A stretch of DNA of 64,000 nucleotides from the IMG/VR virus record IMGVR_UViG_3300021466_000176, one strand, 5' to 3'. Under the pieces are notes generated by a model. It did not search any database and was not told where the DNA came from. It saw nothing but the letters and a program-made list of their open reading frames with translations. Each line of letters starts with the position of its first letter. Position 1 is the stretch's first letter. Shown here piece after piece: positions 3,036-52,875 of the stretch. The DNA is from a virus. The translations under genes and the position numbers were made by a program.

Positions 3036-4166
3036 ATGCGGCAGACAGGGGGAGGTAACGATAACGAAAACAAAGGGAGACGATCAGAACCCATCTTCGA
3101 GCTACCGGACCCGCCAGTAAAAGACGAATTCGGAGGTCCGTTCGGTCCCCCACGGGATGACATCCGTCGATCCGACTCCCGATACCACACGGACGAGATC
3201 ATAGAGCCCGAATGGTACAACTGGGAGAAAAGTGCCGATAAAATACGAAAGCAGAACAACGGACGATGTGAAGTCTGTGGAGCGAAAGCTCAAAACAAGA
3301 AGGCAACAGGCGAGAAGAGGGACTGTTACTCGGCGTTCATCGAAACAGCGGACTTCAGCGAGTCCAATCACGCGTACGTGTGTGAAGATTGCATCCAGCG
3401 CCCCGACTGGAGAGAGATAGCACGAAACCGGCGTGAAGTAGATAGAGGAGTGCTTGAGCGCATGAAAAACAGTGCAAGTAACTTCTTTTTCTCACCGCAT
3501 GGGCGTTTACCCCTCTTCGCACGGAGACTCCTGCCCCTCTTATTGGTCATTATCCCAGCAGTAGTTCTCATCGGGATCCCAGGAGTTGAGGTTGCTGCAC
3601 TTATCGGAGCAATCCTCACGTCAGTCGTGCTCGGAGTCCACACGCTCGATTGGAGTCGCCGCGACCCAATCGGGTGGATCATCCGATGGGAAAACCCCAA
3701 CCGGAAGTTGCTACTATACGAGCCAACGCTCGCAGTACTGACGTACGTAATCCTCGAAACTGACGTACTGCCAATAACCGAAGCGGTAGCAACGAACAAC
3801 TTACTCGTTCTCGCGCTCGACATCGCATGGATAACCATCGCAATACTGATTCTCAAAGATGTCTATACGGGGATCAAAATCGACGCGATAGCAGCCGAGG
3901 GACTACCGATCGGAACAAAGACGTTCTGGCAAACCGGAATCAGGGGATCGATTCCGTTAGCAGTCGGATCGTTGGTAGTCGGATTCCCCCTCGGTCTCAC
4001 CCAAGCCCAAGAGGAAGCAGCAATCGTTCTATCGACACTGATCCCGGTCGGCTTCATATCGGCCTATCTCTGCCTCCGTATAATCCACTCAGAGAGATTT
4101 CAACGATACGCCCTTTCTATCGCGGAGAAATTCGGTAGAATTAAATCATCCCTCCCCCTCTGCTGA
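3036..4166 (+). CDS. Membrane protein with N-terminal degenerate HNH-like Zn-binding domain
   Basis: CEVCG...NHAYVCEDC followed by about 6 hydrophobic helices; start moved to ATG 3036 downstream of T-run/TATA-like sequence. Confidence 0.6.
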   Translation: MRQTGGGNDNENKGRRSEPIFELPDPPVKDEFGGPFGPPRDDIRRSDSRYHTDEIIEPEWYNWEKSADKIRKQNNGRCEVCGAKAQNKKATGEKRDCYSAFIETADFSESNHAYVCEDCIQRPDWREIARNRREVDRGVLERMKNSASNFFFSPHGRLPLFARRLLPLLLVIIPAVVLIGIPGVEVAALIGAILTSVVLGVHTLDWSRRDPIGWIIRWENPNRKLLLYEPTLAVLTYVILETDVLPITEAVATNNLLVLALDIAWITIAILILKDVYTGIKIDAIAAEGLPIGTKTFWQTGIRGSIPLAVGSLVVGFPLGLTQAQEEAAIVLSTLIPVGFISAYLCLRIIHSERFQRYALSIAEKFGRIKSSLPLC

Positions 4167-11188: not shown

Positions 11189-12496
11189 ATGCAAGAACCA
11201 GAAACCATCGACGTAGACCTTGAGGCCCCGATCCGGGAAGAGGACCTTCCGAAGAACTTCGACGTGAAGGGAACCTTCCGTGAGTTGATGGAGTTGGCGA
11301 ATAACGAACTCGAATCCATCCCCGAAGACGTAGTTGGGATTCGGCGGTATACATTAGAAGACGATCTCGCGCTTGATTTCGGCAAGCGAAGCGCCGAACT
11401 CGTCCTATTCGGCCTCAACCGGAGCGCGTTCGACATTGCCATAAGCCAACTTGCCGATTCGACCGAGTTCGCAAATAAGACCGCTTTCAAGGAGTACCAC
11501 GACGAACACCGTCGATCGATTTCAGCGGGCGGGCACGGCAATCGTCCCTTCGATGAAGTCATCCGGGACGACCTGGCGTCGGTATCCGTCAGTTACTCTT
11601 CGGACTCGAACGAGGATTCTGCGTTCGACTGGCGATTCGAGAGCCCAAACGATGAGTATGCTCCGTTCAACATCCAGACTTCGGACGTAGATCGTACTCA
11701 CTTCTCCTGGGAGGACTTCCGGTCTAAGTTCTGGTCGGCAAGCGGCGCTGGTAGTTCTTTCCCCGCACGTCCGGCTTCCAGATACCGGGACGGTGAGGAC
11801 TGGAAACAGTTCATCGCCATGATGGAAGAGGAACGAGAGACCGAACGCAACGAGATAGACGGTCCTCGGAGCGCAGTGCTGCGCGGCGTGAAGGACTTCA
11901 TCCGGACATCACAAGCTTGCCCGACTATCAAGGCTATGAAGTTTACAAACGGCGTTGCGATGGACGCGAACCCATTAGAAGATGAGGAAGAACCCTCAGA
12001 AGTTTGCGTACTCCGGACTGTTGTGAAGAACCTCTGTGATGCCGAGGAGATAACTCCGACTGAATTCTACCAGGAAGTGAGCGCACGCGGGCTCATATCT
12101 CCGAACATGCACAACAAAGCGACGGAATCGGTGGTCGAAAACGGGGAGACAGTAACGTACTGGGCTCTCGACTACCAGAAGCTCCGTGAAGAGGAAGGTG
12201 GAGAGTTACTCCCCGAGGAATGGGGAGAAGGGATGGAGTCCGAAGAGGAACGCGAGGAACGCCGGAAAGAGGAATTGAAAGCCGACACCGATGAGGAAAT
12301 CGATCTCAATAACGAGTCCGACCTTACTGACGACGCGGTAGCTGGAACAGAAGAGAAACCAGAAGAACTCGAACAAGACGAGGAAAGCGAAAGAACTCCG
12401 AAAAGTAGGGGGAAGTTTAGTGTCGGTGATTCGCTAAATGGCGGAGACGGTGGAGGAGAAGAGGACGAGGGGGATGGGGGTGAAGAGGGTGAGTAG
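11189..12496 (+). CDS. Hypothetical acidic protein next to origin-like locus (candidate replication protein)
   Basis: 435-aa ORF, first gene after locus A, overlaps helicase start; function inferred from position only. Confidence 0.6.
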   Translation: MQEPETIDVDLEAPIREEDLPKNFDVKGTFRELMELANNELESIPEDVVGIRRYTLEDDLALDFGKRSAELVLFGLNRSAFDIAISQLADSTEFANKTAFKEYHDEHRRSISAGGHGNRPFDEVIRDDLASVSVSYSSDSNEDSAFDWRFESPNDEYAPFNIQTSDVDRTHFSWEDFRSKFWSASGAGSSFPARPASRYRDGEDWKQFIAMMEEERETERNEIDGPRSAVLRGVKDFIRTSQACPTIKAMKFTNGVAMDANPLEDEEEPSEVCVLRTVVKNLCDAEEITPTEFYQEVSARGLISPNMHNKATESVVENGETVTYWALDYQKLREEEGGELLPEEWGEGMESEEEREERRKEELKADTDEEIDLNNESDLTDDAVAGTEEKPEELEQDEESERTPKSRGKFSVGDSLNGGDGGGEEDEGDGGEEGE

Positions 12497-14558
12497 CGAC
12501 AACTCTAACTCGTCGGATTCTCCCACTCAGGCCGCCGCCCGTCCGGAGTGGCTGGAGTCGATCGACATTCCGGAGATCGAGGAGTACCCCGCTGACAGTT
12601 CGGTGAAGTTGAATGGCCCCCCAGGATGTGGGAAAACGTTTACTGCCGGTGCTCGCGTGGGGATCTGTATCTCCGAGTTGGGATACGACATCTCCGACGT
12701 AGCATGGGTAACATACCGCACTTCTCTCGCTCAGGAAACCCTCGAACGGTTCGGGGAATGGAATCTCGTTAGCTCGTGGGAACTCGATGATCCGATGAGC
12801 GGATCGACCAAGCAGATCGGCACGATCCACGCTATCGCGCGCCGTCTGCTCGGTATTAACAAAGACCGCGTTGAGCCGGGCCACAAGACGGAGTTCTGCA
12901 AGAAGGTATTGAACTTCGATTATAATTCCGACGACCGTAAAGGTGCAGGAAACCAGTTGTTCTCCTGTTTCAATTGGCTGTGCAACAATCTCTATGACCC
13001 GGGCGACCGATCCGATGTCACCGAGTGGCCGAACTCCGATCAGGCGCGCGGTGATCTCATCATCGATACTGGCGGGATATCCATCACCCCTAATAAACTC
13101 GTAAAGTACTGGGAAGCATGGAACGCGTATAAATCCCGGAAGGACTTGGTTGACTTCCATGAGATGCTCTCCCAGGCGTTCAAGAGTGACTTGTCTCCTG
13201 TTGGGGAAAACGGAATCCTGGTCGTGGACGAGTACCACGACGTGACGCCGTTGATGGCTGCTGTCTGTGAGGACTGGATCGAAGATGCTGGAACAGTGAT
13301 CGTCGCTGGTGATCCCCTCCAAGTAGTCAATTCCTTCGATGGCGCTGATCCGAAGTACTTCAATCGTATCGATCTCCCCGAGGTGGTTCTGCCCCGGTCG
13401 TACCGACTCCCAAAGGAGTTTCTGGACTTCGCCCGGCGGATAATCTCGAAAAGCGGGGAGATAATGCCGGAGATCGAACCGGACAGAAACGAGTCCGGGG
13501 ATCCCCGAACCGGGACGATCTACACGCACAAGCTCCCGCCGAAGATCGACGGCGACTACCAGTACGAGGACACCATGCTCGACGTTCACGGGCAGGTATT
13601 CAACGGGTATAAGGTGCCAGCGCCGGACAGGGAATCCTCTCCGGTGAGCATCGTCGATAACGCCCGGGAGGAATCCGATGGCGGGTCGGATGTGATGTTC
13701 CTCGCTCGAACGCGCTTCCAGACTGAGGGAATCGCGTCCGCACTCGGGTACGGTGGTGTGATATACACCGGCCAGGAAAACCTCAATGGTTGGGACACCG
13801 AATCCGATCGGAAGGGGACGAAAGACCGGACGCATTTGTTCGACGCCCTCCAGCGAATCCGGGGTATCACGGCCGGTTCGTTCGAGGGCACGAACGCCAA
13901 CCAGGGTTTGTCAGCTTTCGGTGGCGGTGTGAGCAGTCGGATCGATCCGATGAACGTGACACTCCGCCCGGAGGAACTGGAAGCTCTCGTCTACTACACG
14001 CAGTCGGGTCACCATGAGCTGTCCCGATCGGATATTAATCAAAAGATGCGGATCTTCGTGGATGAGGGCAAGCCAGTGTCGCTTCATACCCTCGCTGGAT
14101 GGGTCGAACCCGAGTTCTGGACAGCCTACACGAACGGTTCTGCGTCCGTGCAAAAGTTAAATGAGTCCCGTGGTGGGTCGAACCAGTCCGGAGGAATGAA
14201 CGATCACGACCGGGCGCTGCTTACTCGGTCGTTGACTCGATACCCGCCTGGAACCACCATCTCGGGCCCGATTCCGGGAGCTAACGACCCTAACGACGGT
14301 AGAGTCGGGGATATCGAGGACGTGAAGGTTATGACAATTCACGCTTCGAAGGGATCCGAAGCCGAGGATGTGGTGGTCTACGATGGCATCACTGGGAACA
14401 TAAAGCGGGGAATCATGAAGCAGGGGACAGACGAGATGCTCAACGAGCATCGGGTGTGGTATGTCGCCGTTACGCGGGCTTCGGAGCGTCTCCACGTCAT
14501 GTTAAATGATGGCGGGTTCGAGTTCGTGACACCCTTCTTGACCCCGAGGATGGGCTGA
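12489..14558 (+). CDS. UvrD/Rep-family SF1 helicase
   Basis: GPPGCGKT, VDEYHD, GDPLQ, SYRLP, MTIHASKGSE, YVAVTRA; GTG 12489 overlapping upstream stop is the preferred start. Confidence 0.9.
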   Translation: MSSDNSNSSDSPTQAAARPEWLESIDIPEIEEYPADSSVKLNGPPGCGKTFTAGARVGICISELGYDISDVAWVTYRTSLAQETLERFGEWNLVSSWELDDPMSGSTKQIGTIHAIARRLLGINKDRVEPGHKTEFCKKVLNFDYNSDDRKGAGNQLFSCFNWLCNNLYDPGDRSDVTEWPNSDQARGDLIIDTGGISITPNKLVKYWEAWNAYKSRKDLVDFHEMLSQAFKSDLSPVGENGILVVDEYHDVTPLMAAVCEDWIEDAGTVIVAGDPLQVVNSFDGADPKYFNRIDLPEVVLPRSYRLPKEFLDFARRIISKSGEIMPEIEPDRNESGDPRTGTIYTHKLPPKIDGDYQYEDTMLDVHGQVFNGYKVPAPDRESSPVSIVDNAREESDGGSDVMFLARTRFQTEGIASALGYGGVIYTGQENLNGWDTESDRKGTKDRTHLFDALQRIRGITAGSFEGTNANQGLSAFGGGVSSRIDPMNVTLRPEELEALVYYTQSGHHELSRSDINQKMRIFVDEGKPVSLHTLAGWVEPEFWTAYTNGSASVQKLNESRGGSNQSGGMNDHDRALLTRSLTRYPPGTTISGPIPGANDPNDGRVGDIEDVKVMTIHASKGSEAEDVVVYDGITGNIKRGIMKQGTDEMLNEHRVWYVAVTRASERLHVMLNDGGFEFVTPFLTPRMG

Positions 14559-14854: not shown

Positions 14855-17800
14855 ATGCACGACAACACTGCGAACGACGACAGCACAGTATCGATTCCAG
14901 CGGCGCGAAACGACGGTACCATCCGGGAAAACCTCACCGATAACGCCTACGAGAACGTCTTCCCCGCGCGCTATCTGAAGCGCAACGAAGAGGGAGAGAT
15001 CGTAGAGACGGTCGAAGAAGCCTTCGAGCGCGTGTCACACAACGTCGCGCTTGCTGATCTCGCCCATCAGACGGAAGATTCAATTGAAGGGCGTGTTCAC
15101 GTCAGTGCGGATTGCGTGCGCCCCGACGATCCGGAAGAGAAGCGACGGAAGATATTCGGTATCATATTCGCTGAGTATGGAGGGGGTCACGGTCCGCGAG
15201 ACTCCGAAATCCCAGTGAACGAGGATACGGCGAAATATCTCGATTACGAATCGGTCCGGAGGGAACTCACCGGAGAGGTGAAATCGGAGTTGGAAGATAC
15301 CGCCGATAAGTTCTTCGATCACATCAGTAGTCTAAAATTCACACCTAATTGTATCCCTTCAGGATCTCTCGTCGCTTCTGATGGGGGGTTGAACGAAATA
15401 CAAGATGTGGAATCCGGAGACAGGGTGTATGATGATGTCGATGGGAACGCCACTGTCGAATCTAAGTTCGATAATGGGTCTAAAGAGGTAGTCCGTATCA
15501 AAACAAGATCCGGGTACGCAGTGCGAGCAACTCCTGAACACTACTTCCGTGTAATAACCGACGATGGAAATTACGATTGGAAGCAAGTCAAAGATATTTC
15601 GGATGGAGATGTGATGGCGCTACAGGAGGATTTCCTTGATGACGACGTAACTGATCCCAACTTAGATTCACTCGGTGATGGGGAATCCCCATATGATGTC
15701 GGGTCCCCCCGTCATGGATTCTCATCTCCATCTTTGATGACGCCTGATCTCGCCGAATGGTTGGGACTCTACGTCGCAAATGGCGCTACTCGGGAATCCG
15801 GAGTGAGGGTGGCGTTCAATGGTGGGGATGATGATCTTCACTCGCATTGGGTAGAACTGACTGCTGAACTCTTCGACTTTCAACCAACTCTAAACGACCA
15901 CCACAGCGATGCGGATTGTGTCGAAGGTGGCGCTTACCGACGTGATCTGGTCGATTATCTCGATACGAACGGGTTACGGAAAGAATCATCAAACGACGCT
16001 GTTATTCCATCACCCGTGATGGGGGGTGGGAAGAGCGTTTCCGCAGCCTTCATCCGAGGTCTGTTCGAAGCTGATGGGACTATCGATGACCAGTGTATTG
16101 AATACTACTCGAACAGTTATGAGTTAGCTCACGGAGTACAGAAGCTACTCCTCGGATTAGGAATCAGAGGTGTATTGAAGGAGAAACGGGGTGGTTATAG
16201 GCTTACCATTCGAAAAAACAGATCCGGGAAGCGATTCGTTGAGCAGATTGGATTCATCAGCGAGAGGAAAAGATCGAAGCAGCATGAGTATACTGAGGTG
16301 GATGAGAGGTCTACCACCATTAAGATCCCCAACATGGTGAAACCGATGCGTAAGTGGCTATCCAATAACGATATCTCATCCGAAGTCAGATCCGACATCC
16401 GTCAATTTGTCCTACCTCCGGATTCGGATTACCTTCAGCAATTCAGCTACAGATCCTTCGAACGCACGGCGGCCGAACATCCGGTACTACTGGAATCTCC
16501 AGTGGCCGAGTTCGCCGAACGTGACCAGCTATACGAGCAAGTAGTATCCATCGAGGGAATGGGGACAATGCCGGTGGAAGATATGAAGATACCTCGCCGG
16601 AATACCTACGTTACAGAAGGGTTTGTGAGCCATAACAGCCCAACGTGGATGAACGCTGGAAACACTCTACAGCAACTCAGCGCCTGTTTCGTGTCTAACC
16701 CGGAAGACGATCTCACGGATATATTCGACACTGAGGGCGATGCAGCAAAAGTCTTCCAAAGCGGGGGTGGGCTCGGATACGATTTCTCCTCGCTTCGCCC
16801 CTACGGTGACCCTGTAGGCGGATCGGGCGGGGTAGCATCCGGACCCATCAGCTTCATGCGGAGCTACGACACGATGTGTGCCACCATTGCACAGGGCGGG
16901 AAGCGCAGGGGCGCTCAGATGGCGAACATGCGGATCGACCATCCGGATGCTCCCTACTTCATCCACTCGAAGCGGATGGACGTATCCCTCGCTCAGACTC
17001 TCCTACTTAACGATCCTGATGACTTCACGCACAGTAGCTTCGGGGATGCACTCGAAGAAGCGCGCGAGTTGATCGATGATGAAGGCCGCGTCCCCGAACA
17101 CCTCCGGAACGCAGCCGAGGGGCACCTTTCTAACTTCAATATCTCGTTGTTCATCCCCGATCGGTTCATGGATGCACTCGAAAACGAGGACACGTATGAG
17201 ATGATTAATCCCCGAACGGGCGAGCAACACATCGCCACTGATGGGACCGTCGAGATGTACGGTTGGTTCGATCTCGATGAGTACGTCGAAGTCGGCGAGC
17301 CCGTGGAACTGCCGGCAGAGGAAATCTGGTCGCGGATCATCACCGGGGCCCACGCCAACGGCGAACCTGGGGTCATTTTCGATGATACGGTCAATCGAGA
17401 TCACAGCTTCGATGTGGACAAATACCCAGAGAAACGCATAAAAGCTACCAATCCGTGCGGCGAACAGGCCCTTATGGATTACGAATCGTGTACTCTTGGG
17501 CATATTAATTTATCAACCATCACCCAGGCGGATGGTGATGGGAACACGATCACCTTCGAGAGGTGGACCGAAAGTCGCGGACGCTACTACCACGGCGGTC
17601 CGAGTCCACAGGACATCCGGGAATACCTCATGGATGCGATCAATCATGAGGAACTCCAGAGCCGGGTAGATATGGGAGTACATTACCTGGATAACGTGCT
17701 CACCATGAGTGATTTCCCGATCGAGAAGATCGATCAGATGGCGAAAGACAACCGAAAGATCGGACTCGGGATTATGGGACTCGCTCAACTCTACGTCGAG

Positions 17801-19303
17801 TTAGGTGTCGAGTACGGATCGGATATCGGCAACGAGATCGCTCGACAGTTAATGAGCACCATCAACCACTTCTCGAAGCGTAAATCAAACGAACTCGCTA
17901 AAGAACGTGGGGTCTTCCCGAACTGGGAGGATTCGAAGTGGGCTGATCCGGAATCGCACACTGAGTGGTTCGAGAAACACACGGGTCTGGTTGCCTCGGA
18001 GTTTTCCGATGGGTTCCGGATGCGAAATCACAACACGATGACGATCGCCCCGACCGGGACTACCAGCATGGTAGGTAATACCACGGGCGGGTGTGAGCCG
18101 ATGTTCAACGTCGCTAACTACAAAAACGTCTCACAGGACGTTCAGGGCGAGGAGATGCTCGTCCAGTTCGACTCACTCTTCCTTGACGTTCTGGAGGCGA
18201 GCGGTATCGATGTGGACGAGGTAAAAACCGAGTGCCAAGAGTTGATGGAAGCAGGAGAGTTCGACACCGCTCGGGACCTCGATACGGTCCCGGATGAACT
18301 CGCTCGCTTGTTCGTCACCAGCGGCGAACTCACTGCTAAAGAACACGCTTCGGTCCAGTGTGCGTGTCAAGAAGGTGTTGATTCGTCAATAAGTAAGACG
18401 ACAAACGCCTCACATGATTCGACGGTCGAGGATGCCGACGAGGTGTTCCGTTACATCTACGAGAACGGCGGAAAGGGAATCACCTACTACCGCGACGGTT
18501 CCCGATCCAAGCAAGTGCTAACAACTCGCAAGGAGAATTCTCTCGATGGGTTTGCGGAGGAATCCGGGGAGTTCAATGCGGAATCACTGGTCGAATCCCT
18601 CGACGAAGAGCAGCTCGCTGATCTGGAGAACGAGATGCAGATCGACAACGAAGCACCAGATTACGATGAGCCAGATGTAATTATCGGGACTGAGGATAGT
18701 TCGGATGAAGACGGGTACGCGACGAAGCGCCCCCGTCCGGACGTACTCCACGGCGCGAGCCAGCGGATCGATACCGGCTTCGGGAAAATCTACGTGAACG
18801 TGAACGACGATGAGAACGGCCGTCCGTTCGAAGTGTTCCTCAACACCGGAAAGTCCGGTGGGTTCACGAACGGCTTTACCGAAGCTCTCGCACAGATGAT
18901 CTCGGTCGCGCTGCGTTCGGGCGTCGATCCGGAGGAAGTGATCGATGGGATATCGGGAATCAAGAGCCCGCGAGTCGCGTGGGACCAAGGCGAACAGATC
19001 GAGTCGATTCCGGATGGGGTGGCGACGGGCCTCCGCCGGCATATCGACCGGGATCTCTCAGGCGTCCGTGAAGGCGCACAGTCGCTCGCTGAGGACTCGG
19101 AGTTCGAGACGGATGGAGGATCGGACGATGATGAAAACTCCGAGAGCGAAGACACTGGCGGGATGAGATCGCACGCTGGCGCAGCGGCCGACATGATCGC
19201 CAATGGCGAGTCGCCGGAGTGTCCGGAGTGTGGTGCGTTCGCGCTGTCCTACTCCGAGGGATGTAAGAAATGTGAAAGTTGTGGATGGTCGGAGTGTGGA
19301 TGA
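14855..19303 (+). CDS. nrdJ: Class II (B12-dependent) ribonucleotide reductase with intein
   Basis: PN/SPTWMNAG, QGGKRRGAQM, TNPCGEQ, TIAPTGT, YYRDGSR, C-terminal TSCPD-like and Zn-ribbon. Confidence 0.95.
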   Translation: MHDNTANDDSTVSIPAARNDGTIRENLTDNAYENVFPARYLKRNEEGEIVETVEEAFERVSHNVALADLAHQTEDSIEGRVHVSADCVRPDDPEEKRRKIFGIIFAEYGGGHGPRDSEIPVNEDTAKYLDYESVRRELTGEVKSELEDTADKFFDHISSLKFTPNCIPSGSLVASDGGLNEIQDVESGDRVYDDVDGNATVESKFDNGSKEVVRIKTRSGYAVRATPEHYFRVITDDGNYDWKQVKDISDGDVMALQEDFLDDDVTDPNLDSLGDGESPYDVGSPRHGFSSPSLMTPDLAEWLGLYVANGATRESGVRVAFNGGDDDLHSHWVELTAELFDFQPTLNDHHSDADCVEGGAYRRDLVDYLDTNGLRKESSNDAVIPSPVMGGGKSVSAAFIRGLFEADGTIDDQCIEYYSNSYELAHGVQKLLLGLGIRGVLKEKRGGYRLTIRKNRSGKRFVEQIGFISERKRSKQHEYTEVDERSTTIKIPNMVKPMRKWLSNNDISSEVRSDIRQFVLPPDSDYLQQFSYRSFERTAAEHPVLLESPVAEFAERDQLYEQVVSIEGMGTMPVEDMKIPRRNTYVTEGFVSHNSPTWMNAGNTLQQLSACFVSNPEDDLTDIFDTEGDAAKVFQSGGGLGYDFSSLRPYGDPVGGSGGVASGPISFMRSYDTMCATIAQGGKRRGAQMANMRIDHPDAPYFIHSKRMDVSLAQTLLLNDPDDFTHSSFGDALEEARELIDDEGRVPEHLRNAAEGHLSNFNISLFIPDRFMDALENEDTYEMINPRTGEQHIATDGTVEMYGWFDLDEYVEVGEPVELPAEEIWSRIITGAHANGEPGVIFDDTVNRDHSFDVDKYPEKRIKATNPCGEQALMDYESCTLGHINLSTITQADGDGNTITFERWTESRGRYYHGGPSPQDIREYLMDAINHEELQSRVDMGVHYLDNVLTMSDFPIEKIDQMAKDNRKIGLGIMGLAQLYVELGVEYGSDIGNEIARQLMSTINHFSKRKSNELAKERGVFPNWEDSKWADPESHTEWFEKHTGLVASEFSDGFRMRNHNTMTIAPTGTTSMVGNTTGGCEPMFNVANYKNVSQDVQGEEMLVQFDSLFLDVLEASGIDVDEVKTECQELMEAGEFDTARDLDTVPDELARLFVTSGELTAKEHASVQCACQEGVDSSISKTTNASHDSTVEDADEVFRYIYENGGKGITYYRDGSRSKQVLTTRKENSLDGFAEESGEFNAESLVESLDEEQLADLENEMQIDNEAPDYDEPDVIIGTEDSSDEDGYATKRPRPDVLHGASQRIDTGFGKIYVNVNDDENGRPFEVFLNTGKSGGFTNGFTEALAQMISVALRSGVDPEEVIDGISGIKSPRVAWDQGEQIESIPDGVATGLRRHIDRDLSGVREGAQSLAEDSEFETDGGSDDDENSESEDTGGMRSHAGAAADMIANGESPECPECGAFALSYSEGCKKCESCGWSECG
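15350..16636 (+). mobile_element. Intein (429 aa) with LAGLIDADG homing-endonuclease domain
   Basis: Starts at Cys (FTPN|CIPSG), ends FVSHN|S; LGLYVANG and RGLFEADG blocks; excision restores PNSPT. Confidence 0.93.
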
Positions 19304-20500: not shown

Positions 20501-20524
20501 ATCAAAAGATAGGAATCCGGAATC

Positions 20525-20531
20525 TTTATTA
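20525..20531 (+). promoter_or_regulatory. TATA-like box upstream of Y-RNA-like genes
   Basis: TTTATTA ~25 nt upstream of the first paired base of the ncRNA. Confidence 0.5.
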
Positions 20532-20553: not shown

Positions 20554-20696
20554 AGGACGAGCGCGACGGAACGATCTACAACGCCCTTGTAGAGGCAGAG
20601 GCCGAGGTTCGAATCCTCGCGCGTCGGGATTACCCTGGCGTGTAGTGTAGTGGTAGCACGCTTTCATCACGATCGTTCCAACTTTCCCTCGTCCCT
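20554..20696 (+). ncRNA. YrlA-like Y RNA: circularly permuted tRNA mimic on a Ro-binding-type stem
   Basis: Stems 20555-61/20688-94 and 20568-76/20671-79; T-arm CGAGG-TTCGAAT-CCTCG 20603-19 precedes a loop-closed acceptor-like stem 20620-42 and D-arm GTGT-AGTGGTA-GCAC 20645-59. Confidence 0.85.
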
Positions 20697-20702
20697 AACT
20701 AA

Positions 20703-20783
20703 GAACCCAGCGCGACGGATCGGATTACACCGAGCTTATCACAAAGTTCACCACCAATTTCCGATCCATATTTTCCTGGGTTC
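20703..20783 (+). ncRNA. Second, minimal Y-RNA-like ncRNA
   Basis: GAACCCAG/CTGGGTTC and GGATCGGA/TCCGATCC stems with the same CGCGAC 6x8 internal loop as the first RNA. Confidence 0.8.
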
Positions 20784-20878
20784 ACTCGATCAATAAGCGA
20801 CAGCTACCTACACCGTTTTAGAATCGAAACAGTTATACTCCTGTTGGAACGACTGAGTTAAACAGAGTGGTGAACTAA

Positions 20879-22603
20879 ATGGATTTCAATCGGACAGTCG
20901 AATCCGTCGAAGAGAAAACCCGGACGACAAACCTTGCAGGCGGGGAATCGTTCGCCCCGGACACTCCGGAAATGCAGCTATACAAGCTGACCCTCAACAA
21001 CCTACTTGAGGACACGTACTACGAGAGCGACACCGAATCCCTCTCGAAACTCATAGAAGCGTTCAACGCGGTTGCAGGGGAGAATCCGGAGTTCGTCATG
21101 AAACTCGCCGCCCATGCTCGGGAGGATATGGGGCTGCGAGAAGTATCGCAAGTCCTGATGGTTCTTGCGGCGAACGATGAGCGGACGCGGGGCACCGTTC
21201 GTGAACTCGCGCCTTACGTTTTACAGCGAGCGGACGAACCGGCGAAGTGTCTCGGGATTCAGGACTTCCTCAACGACCCCTCGGATATGAGTACCCCGCC
21301 TCCCGGATCCTCCCCACCGTCCTCGCTCCGGAAAGCGATCAGCGATTACCTCTGTACGATCGATGAATACGAGGCGGGGAAGTACCGACAGGACAACAAG
21401 GAGTGGTCACTCGTCGATGTCGAGAACGTAATCCATCCGGTCCCGGCGGAGGGAGATTCCGACTCGGATCGAGAGCGCAGAAACCGCGAAGCACTCCGTA
21501 GACTCGCTCTCGGCGATCTCGATGACTACCCAGGAGTTGATCCCCTCCGCGCTCCGGATACGCTCCAGCGCGAACGTGGCGGCTCTACGACGACAGTAGA
21601 GGAGTGGCGTCAGAGCCTCGATGACGACATGCCGCTTCGATCACGCTTGGTGAACGTCGTATCAATGCTCGAATCCGGACTCACTGGAGAGGAAATCTTC
21701 GGCGATGTGACCCAGGAGTGGGTTCAAAATAGTGGCATCTGGCCGTTCCGTTACTACCAGGCAGCGAAAGCCATTCAGGACGCGAGAGGGGCCTCACGGA
21801 ATCTTCATTCGCTACGACGCCGAAGCACGTCTATCGTCTCCCGTCCGGGTCCTATGATGGAACGTGGAACGTTCGAGAACAGCAATCAGCTAAACGATGA
21901 GTATACGATGGCGTTTCTCTCGAAGGCGATTGACCTCTCCAGTGGGTCACTATCGGATGACCTCCGGGGGACCCACACGACGGTCGATCTATCCGGATCG
22001 ATGGACGGTATGATCTCCGAGCACTCCGTGATGACCCGGAAAGAGATCGGGATGCTCTTCGGAGCGATGCTTGCCGGAAAGAACTCCGCTGTATCGGGCT
22101 TCGGTGAGTATTTCGAGTGGATAGACATCGACCCGGAAGTTCCGGTACTGGATAAAATGGCGTCGATCTTCGAAGTCGATCAGGAAGTTGGACACAACAC
22201 GAACGCGTATCTCGCCTTTGAATGGGCGACCCGGAACAACGTCTCGTTCGATCGGTTCTTCGTGTTTACTGACGAGCAGATGTGGAACAGTCGATCCCCG
22301 GGGAAATCCACTCACCCGCGCACTTCGGGACCTTCCAAACGAAGCCGGGCTCGGAGCACTGGGCGCAGACAAAAGACCTTCAACGAGGCACTCAAGGAGT
22401 ACCGCCGGGAGGTGAATCCGGAAGCGACGGTCTACGTGATCGACCTTGCCTCCTACGGTGGTCTATCGACGCCTGAAAACGCCGAAGGTGTATTCAACAT
22501 CTCCGGATGGTCCGACGACGTGTTGGACTTTATTGAGTTTGCTGAGAATCCCGGCGACCAGATCAGCGCGATCGAATCCAAGTACGGAGGTAACGATGAG
22601 TGA
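20879..22603 (+). CDS. Ro60/TROVE-domain RNA-binding protein with vWA domain
   Basis: N-terminal TROVE pattern (PEFVMKLAAHAREDMGLR, PFRYYQA), MIDAS DLSGSM and FTDEQ. Confidence 0.9.
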   Translation: MDFNRTVESVEEKTRTTNLAGGESFAPDTPEMQLYKLTLNNLLEDTYYESDTESLSKLIEAFNAVAGENPEFVMKLAAHAREDMGLREVSQVLMVLAANDERTRGTVRELAPYVLQRADEPAKCLGIQDFLNDPSDMSTPPPGSSPPSSLRKAISDYLCTIDEYEAGKYRQDNKEWSLVDVENVIHPVPAEGDSDSDRERRNREALRRLALGDLDDYPGVDPLRAPDTLQRERGGSTTTVEEWRQSLDDDMPLRSRLVNVVSMLESGLTGEEIFGDVTQEWVQNSGIWPFRYYQAAKAIQDARGASRNLHSLRRRSTSIVSRPGPMMERGTFENSNQLNDEYTMAFLSKAIDLSSGSLSDDLRGTHTTVDLSGSMDGMISEHSVMTRKEIGMLFGAMLAGKNSAVSGFGEYFEWIDIDPEVPVLDKMASIFEVDQEVGHNTNAYLAFEWATRNNVSFDRFFVFTDEQMWNSRSPGKSTHPRTSGPSKRSRARSTGRRQKTFNEALKEYRREVNPEATVYVIDLASYGGLSTPENAEGVFNISGWSDDVLDFIEFAENPGDQISAIESKYGGNDE

Positions 22604-22930: not shown

Positions 22931-24463
22931 ATGCCAGAATTACGTTTCGAGAGCGAACGGGAGGAGAAAGAACGCAGAGAAGCTTCCTACGGGCTTCATA
23001 TCGCTCCATTTACGCCGGATAACATCGGGGACGGTATCGCGGAGATCGAAGACATGCGCGAAGTGGCGGGGTTGAACCGTTCAGCGTCAGGATTAGAGGA
23101 ACTCACTGGAGACGGGCAAGTCATCGTCGTAATGGATTCCGGAGTCGATGACTCACATCCGATTTTGCGAGACGTGGACGTAGGTCACGTCGATGTAACC
23201 GGATCAGGGCAGACGCGCGATAAGGTCGGTCATGGTACCGCGTGCGCTGGGTTGATCCACCAGGTCGCCCCGGGTGCGAGGATAATTTCGCTCCGTGTGT
23301 TCGATACGTCCGGGCGGACTGATGGACAGACGATCAAGCGCGCCTATCAGTGGCTCATGGATAACTCCGAGCATGTGGACGTTGTTAACATGTCTTGGGG
23401 GGCCAGTAAGACTATCCGATCTATCGATAAGTGGCACAACCAACTGAGTGATACCGGCGTTATCCCTGTCGTTTCAGCGGGTAACAGCGGTGGACCATCC
23501 GGATCCCCCGCGACCGCTGCATCCGGGTGGTCGGTCGGAGCGTGTGATGAGTTCGGCGAGATGGCCGATTTCTCCTCGTATAACCCCGAATACTCCAATC
23601 CGGAAGTCACTGCCGTCGGAAAGAACACTGTCTTACCCCGAGCCGAGAACACATCGATGGGGAAAGAAATAGAGGACATCACTGGAGTTTCGGTTCCATA
23701 TCCGGCAGTGATGGCTTCGGGAACCTCTTTCTCCGGGCCGCAAGTAGCAGCTATCGTCTCGCTTCTCCGTTCGGCCGATACCATCCGGACAAACGAAATA
23801 CTCAGTGCGCTCACCGACACTGCACGGGATATCCGCGACACTGAAACAGATGGTGAAGGGATCGTAGATTACCTCAGAGCCCGATTTCGACTCAGGCCGG
23901 AAGACCCCGAAAAACCTGAAGAGCCCGAATCCCCCGAAGAACCCGGACATCCGGAGCAGCCTGACCCCGGAGAGGAAGGGAAACCGCCGAACGTCCGTCC
24001 GCCTCGTGATGATAACTTCGGGGCGTTCGCTGAACCGATCGGTATTGAAGCGACCGGACTACAATTCAACGGCATCCATCAGTACACGGCTGATATCTAC
24101 TACGTCACTGACGGGGATTCGATGAAATGTAAGGTTTCATTTGGATTCTCTCTCACCCAACGGTGGGTGTTGCGGCTTCTCGGCGTTGATACTGCCGAAA
24201 TTTATGGAGTACCGAAGGATAGTGATGAGTATAAAGAGGGTGCTAAACACAGACAGTTCGTCCAGGATTGGGTCGAGAAAGGGAAGGAAGACTACGATGG
24301 TCACGAGGACGAAGAAGTCGAGTACCCGTTCCTTGTGAAGAGCGAAGAGTTCGGTAAATACGGAAACAGAAGGCTCGCTGTTATCAAGCGTCGATCGGAT
24401 GGGTCCGTTCTCAACCAGGCGCTGATCGATGAGTACGGTGATTCCGTCAGGTATGGAAAGTAG
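22931..24463 (+). CDS. S8 subtilase fused to C-terminal thermonuclease (SNase)-like domain
   Basis: Triad MDSGVD / GHGT / GTSFS, SAGN; Pro/Glu linker; DGDS, RLLGVDTAE, GKYGNRR. Confidence 0.8.
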   Translation: MPELRFESEREEKERREASYGLHIAPFTPDNIGDGIAEIEDMREVAGLNRSASGLEELTGDGQVIVVMDSGVDDSHPILRDVDVGHVDVTGSGQTRDKVGHGTACAGLIHQVAPGARIISLRVFDTSGRTDGQTIKRAYQWLMDNSEHVDVVNMSWGASKTIRSIDKWHNQLSDTGVIPVVSAGNSGGPSGSPATAASGWSVGACDEFGEMADFSSYNPEYSNPEVTAVGKNTVLPRAENTSMGKEIEDITGVSVPYPAVMASGTSFSGPQVAAIVSLLRSADTIRTNEILSALTDTARDIRDTETDGEGIVDYLRARFRLRPEDPEKPEEPESPEEPGHPEQPDPGEEGKPPNVRPPRDDNFGAFAEPIGIEATGLQFNGIHQYTADIYYVTDGDSMKCKVSFGFSLTQRWVLRLLGVDTAEIYGVPKDSDEYKEGAKHRQFVQDWVEKGKEDYDGHEDEEVEYPFLVKSEEFGKYGNRRLAVIKRRSDGSVLNQALIDEYGDSVRYGK

Positions 24464-24554: not shown

Positions 24555-25274
24555 ATGGACCTCGAAGTTCCGATCACGTACCACCCCGAACTTCCGGAAG
24601 GGGTGCCGCTCGTAGCGTCCTTTTCCGATGATAGGAACAGACTGAGCTATTATCTCCCACGTCTTCAGTCGATCGAAGGACTCAGAGCCCCATTAACGAC
24701 GTTAATTTCCGTCGATGGGAACTTCGATAGCTACCCAGAAATCGAATATCGGGACGCTACTCGTTTCATGCAGGATATCGGTGCTCAGACAGCTTTCGTG
24801 AGGGGAGATTACTCCTCGGGAAAATACGACGGGGACGTGGGTTCGAAAATACACTCCCAAGACCCGTATGATATCGAAACCGTCGTGCTTGAAACGCTTC
24901 GCCAGTTAGGTCGGGGGAAGAGACATCTCGGCGGACGGATAGCCATTCGGGAGTGGATCTCTCACGATCGGGAAGTCCGCTATTTCATCCGGGATGGGTC
25001 GGTTCTTTACTCCGATTCACTCGATAACGGAAACGAGTCCCCGGACTGGGTTGCTGGAGCAGTAGCGGATCACTTCTCCGATTTGGCGTGGTCGGTCGAT
25101 TTCATCCGTCATGAGCGGTCGGGTAGCTGGTATCTGATCGATATGGGGCTTGACGGACTGTATCACAACGGGACGGAATGGATTCCGATATCGGAACACC
25201 TCGATAAGAGCTATAGCCCGATACAGCACGCGGATAAAATGCCCGATCCCGACCGGTTGAAGTACCGACGTTGA
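24555..25274 (+). CDS. Possible ATP-grasp (R2K-like) protein
   Basis: FVRGD, IREWI..EVRYFIRDG, WSVDF..WYLIDMG resemble ATP-grasp motifs; tentative. Confidence 0.45.
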   Translation: MDLEVPITYHPELPEGVPLVASFSDDRNRLSYYLPRLQSIEGLRAPLTTLISVDGNFDSYPEIEYRDATRFMQDIGAQTAFVRGDYSSGKYDGDVGSKIHSQDPYDIETVVLETLRQLGRGKRHLGGRIAIREWISHDREVRYFIRDGSVLYSDSLDNGNESPDWVAGAVADHFSDLAWSVDFIRHERSGSWYLIDMGLDGLYHNGTEWIPISEHLDKSYSPIQHADKMPDPDRLKYRR

Positions 25275-51494: not shown

Positions 51495-52507
51495 TGATCT
51501 GGTGTGGAGGAGCGTGGTCGTGGTGGTTGGTGGTATCCGTTACCTTTGTCTTCATCGTCTTCTTCCTCTTCATCCTCGATGTCGAATCTCTCAGCGAGAA
51601 AGCCCCGGTACTTTTCGTACCAGCGGGGTGTAATCTCCTTGCTAACCGGACACTCGCCATAGACACGCCGCACGCCGGGGGTGTTTTGCGCCGCTACGCT
51701 CACGGCACCGCCTTTCTCCTTCACCTCGTGACTTTTCTCGCTTGCTTTCCTGTTCGCCGCTTTCCCAGTATTTACCGTTTTCTTCGCTCCGGCCCTCACT
51801 GTTTCTTTCACGTCCCTCTTCGCGGACCCTCCGACCGAAGCGACTTTCCGGGCAGCGCGATCCCGACCCTCACTTCGCCGTTCTTTCCTCGTACCCTCAG
51901 AGAGTTCAGGCTCGTCACTGAACACGGCGATTACTGCTCCAACGACACTTCCGATAACCCAGTTAAATAGATACATCGCACCTGCCACCATCCCGAAAGT
52001 GAGAGCGATAAGTAGTAGCCCTGGGATCAGCCGTGTTACTATCCAGATTAATATTCGAACAATACCATTTCCCATGAAAAATAGGAAATCGATTATTGCG
52101 CTACTGTGGACGTACAGCAACCAGATGAGTGTCGCCCCGCCTCCGATCAACCCGAGTGCTATCAGTCCCGCTACTGCTCTCTTCAACCATTTCACTTGTT
52201 TGCCCGTCAGTTCGTACTCTTTTGCGTTCCGACTTGCGGACCGAATCGATTGATCAACGCTCTCGGCACCGGATTGTACGCGCTCGCTGTTCGACGCCTT
52301 CACTACGGTTTCTTTCGTATTCGCTGTGAGCTTCTGTGCGCCGTATAATCCACCAGCAACTACCATCATCACGCCAGCGAAAAGAGCGTATGACCCTTGC
52401 CAGAGCAGGTACTTCGCTCCACACCGGAGGTTGATTATCGCATCCCCCGCGATAGCGTCCCTCCAGTATGGGTACTCGTGTCCCTCCCCAGTCTCTTTAT
52501 CAGTCAT
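51491..52507 (-). CDS. Multi-pass membrane protein
   Basis: Several hydrophobic segments; start at ATG 52507. Confidence 0.6.
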   Translation of the reverse strand: MTDKETGEGHEYPYWRDAIAGDAIINLRCGAKYLLWQGSYALFAGVMMVVAGGLYGAQKLTANTKETVVKASNSERVQSGAESVDQSIRSASRNAKEYELTGKQVKWLKRAVAGLIALGLIGGGATLIWLLYVHSSAIIDFLFFMGNGIVRILIWIVTRLIPGLLLIALTFGMVAGAMYLFNWVIGSVVGAVIAVFSDEPELSEGTRKERRSEGRDRAARKVASVGGSAKRDVKETVRAGAKKTVNTGKAANRKASEKSHEVKEKGGAVSVAAQNTPGVRRVYGECPVSKEITPRWYEKYRGFLAERFDIEDEEEEDDEDKGNGYHQPPRPRSSTPDQ

Positions 52508-52875
52508 ACGACCATCACCGACATCACTACGAACACCACGAGCGCCGCAACGAGCGCCGCTGTGAAGACCTGTGGCGTGATCCACTTTGACGACCGGATC
52601 ACGTTGCGTGCTCCAGCACTCATGCCGATATCGAACTGGTCACTGCACGTACTACACCACTGCTCGACCTCCGGGATATCGGATTCGACGCCCGCCACAC
52701 CGAAGTGAGGCTCCGGTTCGTCCTGCACCGAAATCACTTCACCAGCTACTACGTCGATCGTTGCACCCTGGAACACCTCCCGATGACAGAACCCACACTC
52801 TACTGTGTCGGAAACCCCCTCATCGGAGGGTAACGGCCCATCCGTCTCAGTCGCTTGTATTTGTTCTATTGACAT
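52504..52875 (-). CDS. Zn-finger protein with C-terminal anchor
   Basis: CGFC..CSTC, hydrophobic tail. Confidence 0.6.
   Translation of the reverse strand: MSIEQIQATETDGPLPSDEGVSDTVECGFCHREVFQGATIDVVAGEVISVQDEPEPHFGVAGVESDIPEVEQWCSTCSDQFDIGMSAGARNVIRSSKWITPQVFTAALVAALVVFVVMSVMVV

What the first reader, a model, noticed from the sequence alone, without database searches (positions are those of the whole stretch)
20554..22603. Archaeal Ro60 preceded by two tandem Y RNAs, one a circularly permuted tRNA mimic
Seen: RNA1 has T-arm, then loop-closed acceptor stem, then D-arm (reverse of tRNA order), mounted on a terminal stem; RNA2 is a bare stem. Both share AG-CGCGAC-GGA on the 5' strand and an 8-nt pyrimidine-rich 3' loop while the flanking helices differ compensatorily, which is internal covariation evidence. 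Established: bacterial YrlA RNAs have this permuted topology and Salmonella encodes rsr with yrlA and yrlB in an RNA-repair operon. I know of no described Y RNA pair from a haloarchaeal MGE. Haloarchaea lack the exosome, so the partner nuclease or role may be new.
Basis: partly seen in the sequence, partly recalled or inferred. Interest (0 to 1): 0.88.

Follow-up and report, generated by a model that had tools for sequence, protein, structure and literature searches.

The report
Archaeal-virus Ro60 with two Y RNAs
A large tailed virus of salt-loving archaea carries a Ro60 RNA-binding ring protein preceded by two small partner RNAs, one shaped like a back-to-front tRNA, which extends a protein-RNA particle known from animals, bacteria and phages to archaeal viruses and their hosts.

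Summary

- **Protein:** window 20879-22603 encodes a true Ro60. It passes the Pfam cut-offs for TROVE and for the Ro60 vWA domain, and only solved Ro60 structures match its predicted fold.
- **RNA1 (20555-20694):** a stem, a 6x8 internal loop and a second stem carry a T arm, a loop-closed acceptor stem and a D arm. This is the YrlA layout.
- **RNA2 (20703-20783):** the same module without a tRNA-like top. It shares the 11-base AGCGCGACGGA and a U-rich 3' loop with RNA1. The helices differ from RNA1 at 7 base pairs, all compensated.
- **Relatives:** the same module, in 1 to 5 tandem copies, lies upstream of Ro60 in about 45 haloarchaeal loci inside tRNA gene arrays and in other viral contigs. 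Covariation is strong: 99% of cells pair and 25 of 31 pairs show double changes.
- **Link to bacteria:** a model built from the archaeal RNAs also finds bacterial YrlA upstream of bacterial Ro60 genes.

Independent support for the window's own copies is weak. Rfam YrlA gives 20 bits against a threshold of 69. A model built without the window gives E=0.04 for RNA1. RNA2 is not significant on its own. No RNA data were available.

This scan has reported the same kind of locus before on other DNA. I found no paper describing archaeal Y RNAs. I rate it a new member of a known kind.

The parts
20524..20531 (+). TATA-like box (CTTTATTA), about 27 nt upstream of the first base of RNA1; inferred archaeal promoter of the RNA1-RNA2 unit
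   Evidence: Read. Viral relatives L004, L077 and L080 (two copies) have an A/T-rich TATA-like box at the same distance from their YrlA-like RNAs. It is unchanged in the ~92% variant contig X5, although the surrounding spacer differs at 14 bases plus 2 indels in about 70 nt. Promoter function is inferred, not shown.
20555..20694 (+). RNA1: YrlA-like Y RNA. Outer stem 20555-61/20688-94; 5' loop CGCGAC 20562-67; inner stem 20568-76/20671-79; UAC motif 20577-79; short variable-arm-like hairpin about 20583-96; T arm 20603-19; loop-closed acceptor-like stem 20620-42; D arm 20645-59; 3' loop AACUUUCC 20680-87
   Evidence: Rfam YrlA 20.2 bits, E=0.09; model built without the window: 17.3 bits, E=0.042, full-length match with exact ends. 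Variant X5 has only 6 substitutions in 140 nt: 3 in the acceptor hairpin loop, 1 turning G-U into G-C, 1 at a variable D-loop position, 1 in the variable-arm loop.
20703..20783 (+). RNA2: bare-stem Y-like RNA (YrlB-like). Outer stem 20703-10/20776-83; 5' loop CGCGAC 20711-16; inner stem 20717-24/20760-67; UAC at 20726-28; variable apical part 20725-59; 3' loop AUAUUUUC 20768-75
   Evidence: Relatives L003 and X5 keep the module and show one compensated pair (G20723-C20761 becomes A-U). The L003 ortholog scores 18 bits, E=0.011 against the cellular bare-stem model, and L077 has an equivalent RNA at 38.6 bits. The window copy itself scores only 9.7 bits, E=3.5.
20843..20848 (+). Possible second TATA-like element (TTATAC), about 33 nt upstream of the Ro60 start codon
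   Evidence: Read. A TTAT core is kept in L003. This is weak inference only; co-transcription of the RNAs with Ro60 is not excluded.
20879..22603 (+). Ro60 (TROVE + vWA) protein, 574 aa, with intact MIDAS residues and two low-complexity inserts
   Evidence: Pfam TROVE 31.2 bits (cut-off 23) and vWA_Ro60 45.8 bits (cut-off 27.7). D370, S372, S374, T441 and D465 are invariant in 26 homologs. AlphaFold model: pLDDT 74.7, pTM 0.70. Its 13 best PDB matches are all Ro60: phage phiLo 9KOP (TM 0.77 by target), Xenopus 1YVP, Deinococcus 2NVO, human 9NEN. It is 38% identical to HGTV-1 gp129.

Best explanation
The locus is a virus-encoded Ro60-Y RNA module.

**Transcription (inferred).** RNA1 and RNA2 are made from an archaeal TATA promoter about 27 nt upstream of RNA1. 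They are probably one precursor that is cut in the 8-nt spacer.

**Ro60 docking (inferred).** Each RNA pairs its 5' and 3' ends into a stem, an asymmetric internal loop and a second stem. By analogy with vertebrate Y RNAs, Deinococcus Yrn1, YrlA and the phage phiLo Yrl RNAs, this module is the docking site for the Ro60 ring. The conserved 5' strand (CGA core) would be the main contact.

**tRNA-like top of RNA1.** The distal part of RNA1 has a T arm, a closed acceptor and a D arm with every elbow-forming nucleotide kept. It would fold into a tRNA-like L-shape and present that surface to host tRNA-binding or RNA-processing enzymes. RNA2 would load Ro60 without that adaptor.

**Function (inferred).** The particle most likely channels misfolded or damaged structured RNAs through the Ro60 ring to a host nuclease. 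Candidates are the tRNAs of this tRNA-rich virus, or rRNA. The host nuclease cannot be PNPase or the exosome; RNase R and aRNase J are candidates.

**Shown here:** the sequence architecture, its conservation and covariation next to Ro60 genes, and the Ro60 fold.
**Inferred:** transcription, processing, binding, effector and target.
For: **Protein.**

**RNA1.** The architecture and the YrlA-only Rfam hit come. The independent model R2 places its best window hit exactly on RNA1.

**RNA1 and RNA2 compared.** They share the 11-mer, the loop sizes and a UAC motif. They differ at 7 compensated pairs. The chance expectation is 0.65 modules per window.

**Family.**
- Modules are concentrated 130-800 nt upstream of Ro60 on the gene's strand in about 45 haloarchaeal loci. 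I counted 135 on the + strand, 35 on the - strand and 37 in shuffles. The true copies have 8-12 bp stems and UCGAG/CAGUUUUC loops.
- They fall into four size classes, including bare stems of 77-93 nt like RNA2.
- Covariation in 71 cellular copies: 99.2% of cells paired, 25 of 31 pairs with double changes, 0 of 500 shuffles as high, at most 54% paired in slid controls.
- With viral and bacterial copies added: 95.8% paired and 29 of 31 pairs with double changes.

**Link to bacteria.** The archaeal model finds full-length matches just upstream of bacterial Ro60 genes at 30-54 bits. The UUACUUC motif after the inner stem is shared with them.

**Viral relatives.** L004, L077 and L080 carry YrlA-like RNAs. 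L077 and HGTV-1 carry bare-stem RNAs next to Ro60.

**Promoters.** TATA-like boxes sit at a constant distance in five viral copies.

**Selection.** In variant X5, RNA1 differs at 4% of bases against about 20% in the upstream spacer.

**Precedent.** Two Yrl RNAs with a CGAA loop upstream of a phage Ro60 gene bind that protein (PMC12135203).
Against: - No transcript data exist. No RNA run was listed.
- Rfam YrlA scores 20.2 bits, far below the gathering score of 69. The match appears only in a 451-nt search, at E=0.09.
- The model built without the window gives a marginal E=0.042.
- RNA2 is not significant against the cellular bare-stem model.
- The 5' loop CGCGAC does not match GNCGAAN0-1G strictly; 4 of the 6 specified positions agree. 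It also differs from the UCGAG and GUCAG loops of relatives.
- The alignments behind the covariation counts were fitted to the model structure.
- No RNA-repair genes or nuclease partner lie nearby.
Confidence: 0.8

Rival explanations
1. The structures are cis-acting parts of the Ro60 mRNA leader, for example an autoregulatory Ro60 binding site or a stabiliser, and not free-standing small RNAs.
For: The RNAs lie on the same strand directly upstream of the gene. No strong oligo-T terminator follows RNA2; there is only a T4 run about 30 nt downstream of RNA2, which is not kept in L003. In Salmonella the Y RNAs are co-transcribed with rsr.
Against: In cellular loci a true tRNA gene usually separates the RNAs from Ro60, and up to five modules stand in tandem within tRNA arrays. 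That pattern fits processed stable RNAs. The 95 nt between RNA2 and the start codon is much less conserved than the RNAs. A second TATA-like element precedes the ORF. This rival does not exclude the main reading.
Confidence: 0.1
2. RNA1 is a circularly permuted pre-tRNA gene that is spliced and opened into a working tRNA, as in Cyanidioschyzon and Thermofilum.
For: The order of the arms is that of a permuted tRNA (3' half before 5' half). The virus carries some 35 tRNA genes, and the archaeal splicing endonuclease exists in the host (discussion in 10.1101/312249).
Against: There is no anticodon loop. The terminal helix carries a 6x8-nt internal loop, not a bulge-helix-bulge motif (3-nt bulges separated by 4 bp). 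The same terminal module occurs in RNA2 and in many relatives that have no tRNA-like part at all. ARAGORN and the Rfam tRNA model do not call it.
Confidence: 0.03
3. RNA2 is a decayed duplicate or a plain processing or terminator hairpin with no Ro60 role. Only RNA1 is a Y RNA.
For: RNA2 scores 9.7 bits, E=3.5 against the cellular bare-stem model. Its apical part varies freely between strains.
Against: Both loops and both helices of the module are kept against RNA1 through 7 compensated pairs. The module is unchanged in L003 and X5 except for one compensated pair. L077 has an equivalent bare-stem RNA at 38.6 bits in the same place, and HGTV-1 has one at 18.6 bits. Bare-stem copies are common in cellular arrays.
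Confidence: 0.12

Closest known systems
Bacterial and phage YrlA/YrlB Y RNAs with Rsr/Ro60 (Salmonella rsr-yrlBA-rtcBA, Mycobacterium smegmatis, mycobacteriophages; Chen et al. 2014, PMC4201824; Wang et al. 2018, 10.1101/312249; Rfam RF02553)
   Same: - The RNAs are encoded beside Ro60.
- A long stem formed by the 5' and 3' ends carries an internal loop.
- The top has a T arm, a loop-closed acceptor stem and a D arm, with tRNA elbow nucleotides kept.
- A shorter second Y RNA lacks the tRNA-like part.
- A UAC(UUC) motif follows the inner stem, and the 3' loop is pyrimidine-rich.
- The association with tRNA-rich viruses is also shared.
   Different: - The host domain is Archaea, which has no PNPase, and haloarchaea have no exosome.
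- No RtcB/RtcA repair genes are adjacent.
- The Rfam score is 20 bits against a threshold of 69.
- The 5' loop is CGCGAC, not GNCGAA(N)G.
- The promoter is an archaeal TATA box.
Thermus phage phiLo Ro60 with Yrl1 and Yrl2 (PMC12135203; PDB 9KOP, 9L5Y)
   Same: This is a virus-encoded Ro60 with two Y-like RNAs just upstream of the gene. Each RNA is a stem, bulge and stem with a CGA(A) motif in the internal loop. It is the best structural match to the window protein (TM 0.77 by target).
   Different: It is a bacteriophage whose host supplies PNPase for a RYPER-like complex. Sequence identity is only about 20%. Whether its RNAs have a permuted tRNA domain was not examined here.
Haloarchaeal tRNA gene clusters carrying a TROVE gene (Morgado and Vicente 2019, PMC6333295), and HGTV-1 gp129
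   Same: It is the same protein family (37-40% identity) and shows the same link to tRNA gene arrays on mobile elements and viruses.
   Different: Those reports name only the protein. The tandem Y-like RNAs between the tRNAs and the TROVE gene were not described. The window's protein and RNAs sit on a long, fast-evolving viral branch.

Membership tests
Ro60 / TROVE protein | TROVE (HEAT-repeat ring) domain | tested here: met
   Pfam PF05731 scores 31.2 bits against a cut-off of 23. The predicted fold matches only Ro60 structures in the top 13 hits.
Ro60 / TROVE protein | C-terminal vWA domain with MIDAS residues (DxSxS...T...D) | tested here: met
   Pfam PF25045 scores 45.8 bits against a cut-off of 27.7. 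D370, S372, S374, T441 and D465 are invariant in 26 homologs.
Ro60 / TROVE protein | Binds a Y RNA stem on its outer surface and single-stranded RNA ends in the central hole | not testable with these tools
   This needs gel-shift assays, RIP or a structure.
YrlA-type Y RNA (Chen et al. 2014) | Encoded next to a Ro60 gene | tested here: met
   RNA1 ends 184 nt and RNA2 ends 95 nt upstream of the Ro60 start codon, on the same strand.
YrlA-type Y RNA (Chen et al. 2014) | T arm, then loop-closed acceptor-like stem, then D arm, mounted on a stem formed by the 5' and 3' ends | tested here: met
   The T loop is UUCGAAU, UA precedes the D stem, and the D loop contains GG.
YrlA-type Y RNA (Chen et al. 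2014) | 5' motif GNCGAAN0-1G (presumed Ro60 contact) | tested here: inconclusive
   Both RNAs have CGCGACG at the equivalent place, the 5' strand of the internal loop. The CGA core and the final G agree, so 4 of the 6 specified positions match. Cellular relatives have GUCGAG, with 5 of 6 matching.
YrlA-type Y RNA (Chen et al. 2014) | Rfam RF02553 gathering score (69 bits) | tested here: not met
   The window scores 20.2 bits, E=0.09. Relatives score 50.1, 40.6 and 30.7 bits. I therefore call it YrlA-like, not a member of RF02553 as now delimited.
YrlA-type Y RNA (Chen et al. 2014) | Carries tRNA-type modifications and is a substrate of tRNA enzymes | not testable with these tools
   This needs modification mapping and enzyme assays.
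Permuted tRNA gene | Bulge-helix-bulge motif at the terminal helix, and an anticodon loop after joining | tested here: not met
   The terminal helix has a 6x8-nt internal loop and no anticodon. No tRNA was called there.

The most novel reading that the evidence does not exclude
In haloarchaea and their viruses, the Ro60-Y RNA particle travels with tRNA gene arrays and acts as a tRNA surveillance or protection device. Its tRNA-shaped Y RNA would recruit a nuclease other than PNPase or the exosome, for example RNase R or aRNase J, or would act as a decoy for tRNA-targeting host defences. This would be a new effector and a new biological role for Ro60.
Probability: 0.25. Interest if true: 0.75.

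Novelty: new member of a known kind. Interest (0 to 1): 0.55.

Why it matters
Ro60 and Y RNAs have been studied in animals, bacteria and phages. The searchable literature names archaeal TROVE proteins but no archaeal Y RNA.

This locus and its relatives show that the full partnership exists in haloarchaeal viruses. It also exists, in multi-copy arrays, in mobile tRNA-gene clusters of dozens of cultured haloarchaea.

The known bacterial effector (PNPase) and the archaeal exosome are both absent from these hosts. The system therefore gives a direct way to ask what Ro60 particles do when the usual nuclease is missing, and why they travel with tRNA genes.

Cultured carriers make this testable: HGTV-1 on Halogranum, Halorubrum ezzemoulense, Haloarcula amylolytica and Halosimplex pelagicum.

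Tried and rejected
- **Rfam, whole window at gathering thresholds:** only tRNAs were found.
- **HGTV-1 locus in Rfam:** no YrlA hit. A candidate bare-stem RNA appeared only with my own model.
- **Single-protein scan of viral contigs:** nothing found. The profile scan found 4 loci, and only L080 carries the RNAs.
- **Contig L003 (89% relative):** its first 466 bases are an inverted fold-back of the neighbouring sequence. This is most likely an assembly artefact, so it gives RNA2 and only the 3' end of RNA1.
- **Bare-stem model R3 on the window:** RNA2 ranks 8th at E=3.5, so there is no independent support from that test.
- **K-turn reading of the internal loop:** rejected, because no G-A/A-G pairs flank a 3-nt bulge.
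- **Permuted tRNA gene and dimeric-tRNA false positive:** rejected, because there is no BHB motif, no anticodon, and the acceptor is closed by a 5-nt loop.
- **RNA-seq evidence:** none was listed. The contigs that were laid are DNA only.
- **Neighbouring genes:** no RNA-repair gene or nuclease partner was found. The neighbours are a ribonucleotide reductase with an intein, a UvrD helicase, an S8 protease and an ATP-grasp-like protein. Downstream of cellular Ro60 lie an HTH protein and Cdc6.
- **Reviews not held:** the Wolin-lab reviews (Annu Rev Microbiol 2020 and others) could not be read. A passing mention of archaeal Y RNAs there cannot be excluded.
Full report
**Context**

The window is part of a 134-kb IMG/VR virus record that is about 91% complete. 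It was assembled from a halite metagenome. It carries 28 or more Rfam-scored tRNA genes and further ARAGORN calls. Its Ro60 is 38% identical to gp129 of the haloarchaeal myovirus HGTV-1. I therefore read it as an HGTV-1-like tailed virus of haloarchaea. That reading is an inference from these matches.

**The protein**

- ORF 20879-22603 (574 aa) passes the Pfam gathering scores for TROVE and for the Ro60 vWA domain.
- The MIDAS residues are invariant across 26 homologs.
- An AlphaFold model (pLDDT 74.7, pTM 0.70) has Ro60 structures as its 13 best PDB matches and nothing else. These include Thermus phage phiLo, Xenopus, human and Deinococcus Rsr. The next hits are isolated vWA domains.
- Two low-confidence inserts (about residues 315-332 and 476-496) account for the extra length over the ~509-aa cellular homologs.
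- In a tree, the window protein sits on a long branch loosely grouped with HGTV-1 gp129. Named cellular haloarchaeal proteins form a tight clade with short branches, as expected for a recently spreading element.

**The two RNAs in the window**

The intergenic 380 nt folds far better than shuffles (z = -4.1).

- **RNA1 (20555-20694):** a 7-bp outer stem, a 6-nt 5' loop (CGCGAC) opposite an 8-nt 3' loop (AACUUUCC), then a 9-bp inner stem. On top sit a short hairpin, a canonical T arm (loop UUCGAAU), an acceptor-like helix closed by a 5-nt loop, UA, and a D arm with GG in its loop.
- **RNA2 (20703-20783):** the same outer stem, loops and inner stem, with a plain apical hairpin in place of the tRNA-like part.
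- **Shared sequence:** the 11-mer AGCGCGACGGA occurs only at these two places on the + strand.
- **Helix differences:** counted from the loops, the helices differ at 7 pairs, all with changes on both sides and none broken (read).
- **Chance:** a purpose-written scan for this grammar expects 0.65 instances per window on both strands in dinucleotide shuffles. It finds three, two of them these tandem copies.

**Independent recognition**

- Rfam at gathering thresholds reports nothing here.
- A permissive search of 451 nt returns YrlA as the top match, covering the whole model, at 20.2 bits and E=0.09. This is well under the curated 69 bits.
- A covariance model built only from cellular haloarchaeal RNAs (R2, without the window) gives its best window hit exactly at 20555-20694, at 17.3 bits and E=0.042.
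- These are marginal numbers. The window's copies are a divergent branch.
- A model of the cellular bare-stem class finds RNA2 with correct ends but at E=3.5, which is not significant.
- The ortholog of RNA2 in the 89%-identical contig L003 scores 18 bits, E=0.011.

**Comparative evidence**

This is the strong part of the case.

- **Distribution of the protein.** Homologs occur in many haloarchaeal genomes, plasmids and metagenomes.
- **Position of the RNAs.** In about 45 cellular loci the Ro60 gene sits at the end of a tRNA gene array. It is preceded by 1 to 5 tandem copies of the same stem, loop and stem module. The typical loops are UCGAG and CAGUUUUC, and the stems are 8-12 bp.
- **Size classes.** There are four: full YrlA-like with T and D arms (~135 nt); T arm plus another helix (~150 nt); T arm only (84 nt); and bare stems (77-93 nt).
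- **Covariation, cellular copies.** Across 71 copies, 99.2% of cells pair and 25 of 31 pairs show changes on both sides. No shuffle of 500 reaches the observed values, and slid controls pair at 54% or less.
- **Covariation, wider set.** Adding viral and bacterial copies gives 95.8% paired and 29 of 31 pairs with double changes. These alignments were fitted to the model, which favours the structure. The MAFFT-only alignment already showed 20 of 31 pairs with compensatory changes.
- **Link to bacteria.** The archaeal model finds full-length matches directly upstream of Ro60 genes in Actinobacteria, Deinococcales and other bacteria at 30-54 bits. The motif UUACUUC after the inner stem is shared between bacterial and archaeal copies. 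The window has CUACAAC and UUACACC there.
- **Viral relatives.** L004 scores 50 bits with Rfam YrlA and 43.8 bits with R2. L077 scores 75.5 bits. L080 carries two copies at 68.5 and 36 bits.
- **Same pairing elsewhere.** L077 repeats the window's arrangement exactly: a YrlA-like RNA, then a bare-stem RNA (38.6 bits, E=4e-8), then Ro60. HGTV-1 has a candidate bare-stem RNA just before gp129 (18.6 bits, E=0.008).

**Signs of expression and selection**

- Five viral YrlA-like genes, including RNA1, have a TATA-like box ending about 24 nt before the first base of the outer stem. This fits the archaeal promoter geometry. The consensus is from my own knowledge.
- RNA2 follows RNA1 after 8 nt with no box of its own, so I infer a common precursor.
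- A ~92%-identical strain in another study (X5) differs at 14 bases plus 2 indels in the 70 nt upstream of RNA1, but at only 6 of 140 positions in RNA1. Three of these lie in the acceptor hairpin loop, one turns G-U into G-C, one is at a variable D-loop position and one is in the small hairpin loop.
- In RNA2 the changes cluster in the apical part. One inner-stem pair changes from G-C to A-U.
- No RNA run holding this sequence was listed.

**Mechanism**

By analogy with published systems, I propose the following steps.

- Ro60 docks on the stem, loop and stem module through the conserved 5' strand. The published systems are Xenopus Ro-Y RNA, Deinococcus Rsr-Yrn1-PNPase, YrlA and phiLo Yrl1/2 (PMC4201824, 10.1101/312249, PMC12135203).
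- The tRNA-like top of RNA1 engages host tRNA-recognising proteins.
- The particle feeds structured RNAs to a nuclease.
- Haloarchaea lack the exosome and rely on RNase R (PMC1635327, PMC10470531), and archaea lack PNPase (my own knowledge). The effector must therefore differ from the bacterial one.
- The constant association with tRNA arrays points to tRNA metabolism as the field of action. It is seen in cells (PMC6333295), in this virus and in HGTV-1.

All of these steps are inferences.

**Rivals**

- An mRNA-leader role is possible and does not exclude the main reading.
- A permuted pre-tRNA is unlikely, because there is no bulge-helix-bulge motif and no anticodon, and the same terminal module occurs without any tRNA part.
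- RNA2 as a non-functional duplicate is not excluded. However, its module is kept through compensated changes, and L077 has the same pairing.

**Novelty**

- Ro60 with YrlA and YrlB is established in bacteria and phages.
- Two Yrl RNAs upstream of a phage Ro60 gene were published in 2025.
- TROVE genes in haloarchaeal tRNA clusters were noted in 2019, and the HGTV-1 protein is annotated.
- I found no paper describing archaeal or archaeal-virus Y RNAs. Several reviews could not be read.
- This scan has already reported equivalent loci on other DNA (e1-3277688, e1-3266352, e1-5327809, e1-370402, and cellular cases e1-4831914 and e1-5096271). Those are unchecked notes, and I re-derived everything here independently.
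- I class the finding as a new member of a known kind. It is YrlA-like in architecture and probably homologous, but it falls outside Rfam RF02553 as currently delimited.

Noticed in passing
L006-L057 (for example L026 2479-2809, L051 2161-2778, L022 2231-2852): In cellular haloarchaeal genomes and plasmids the Ro60 gene closes a tRNA gene array. It is preceded by up to five tandem Y-like RNAs of four size classes, then usually a true tRNA, and it is followed about 90 nt after its stop by another tRNA-like gene (Gly GCC-like). The cellular proteins form a tight clade with short branches, which suggests a recently spreading mobile element.
   Followed up: partly
L001 (HGTV-1, NC_021328 reverse strand) 3897-3982: There is a candidate bare-stem Y RNA in the 133-nt gap before gp129 of the cultured virus HGTV-1. 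It has a GCGAG 5' loop, an AUACUUC motif and a CCAAUUUC 3' loop (18.6 bits, E=0.008; fold z = -2.1). It is not annotated in the record.
   Followed up: partly
L001 1022-1204 and L004 3868-3996: The HGTV-1 'tRNA-Asp with intron' and a tRNA-like gene next to Ro60 in L004 both carry a long insertion containing the GUUACUUCGC motif typical of the Y-like RNAs. Model R2 hits L001 1088-1204 at 27 bits. These may be hybrids of tRNA and Y RNA, or intron-bearing tRNAs. This is unresolved.
   Followed up: no
L003 1-466: The first 466 bases of this metagenomic contig are an inverted copy of the sequence that should lie upstream of the Ro60 gene (it matches window 21126-20662 on the minus strand). This is most likely a fold-back assembly artefact, and it truncates the called protein to 498 aa.
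   Followed up: yes
window 14855-19303: A ribonucleotide reductase large subunit is interrupted by an intein with a LAGLIDADG homing endonuclease. A UvrD-type helicase lies at 12438-14558.
   Followed up: no
window 22931-24463 and 24555-25274: A subtilase (S8) gene and a weak ATP-grasp-like gene follow Ro60. The order Ro60, small ORF, S8, two ORFs is kept in L003. No link to the Ro60 module was found.
   Followed up: no
window 52371-52524 (minus strand): This is the third hit of my module scan (8- and 9-bp stems, loops GATGGT and CTCTTTTC). It has no similarity to the Ro60-linked loops and is probably a chance match.
   Followed up: no
window 29974-31218 (minus strand): A TnpB/Cas12f-like protein is present (Pfam Cas12f1-like TNB domain, 62 bits).
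   Followed up: no
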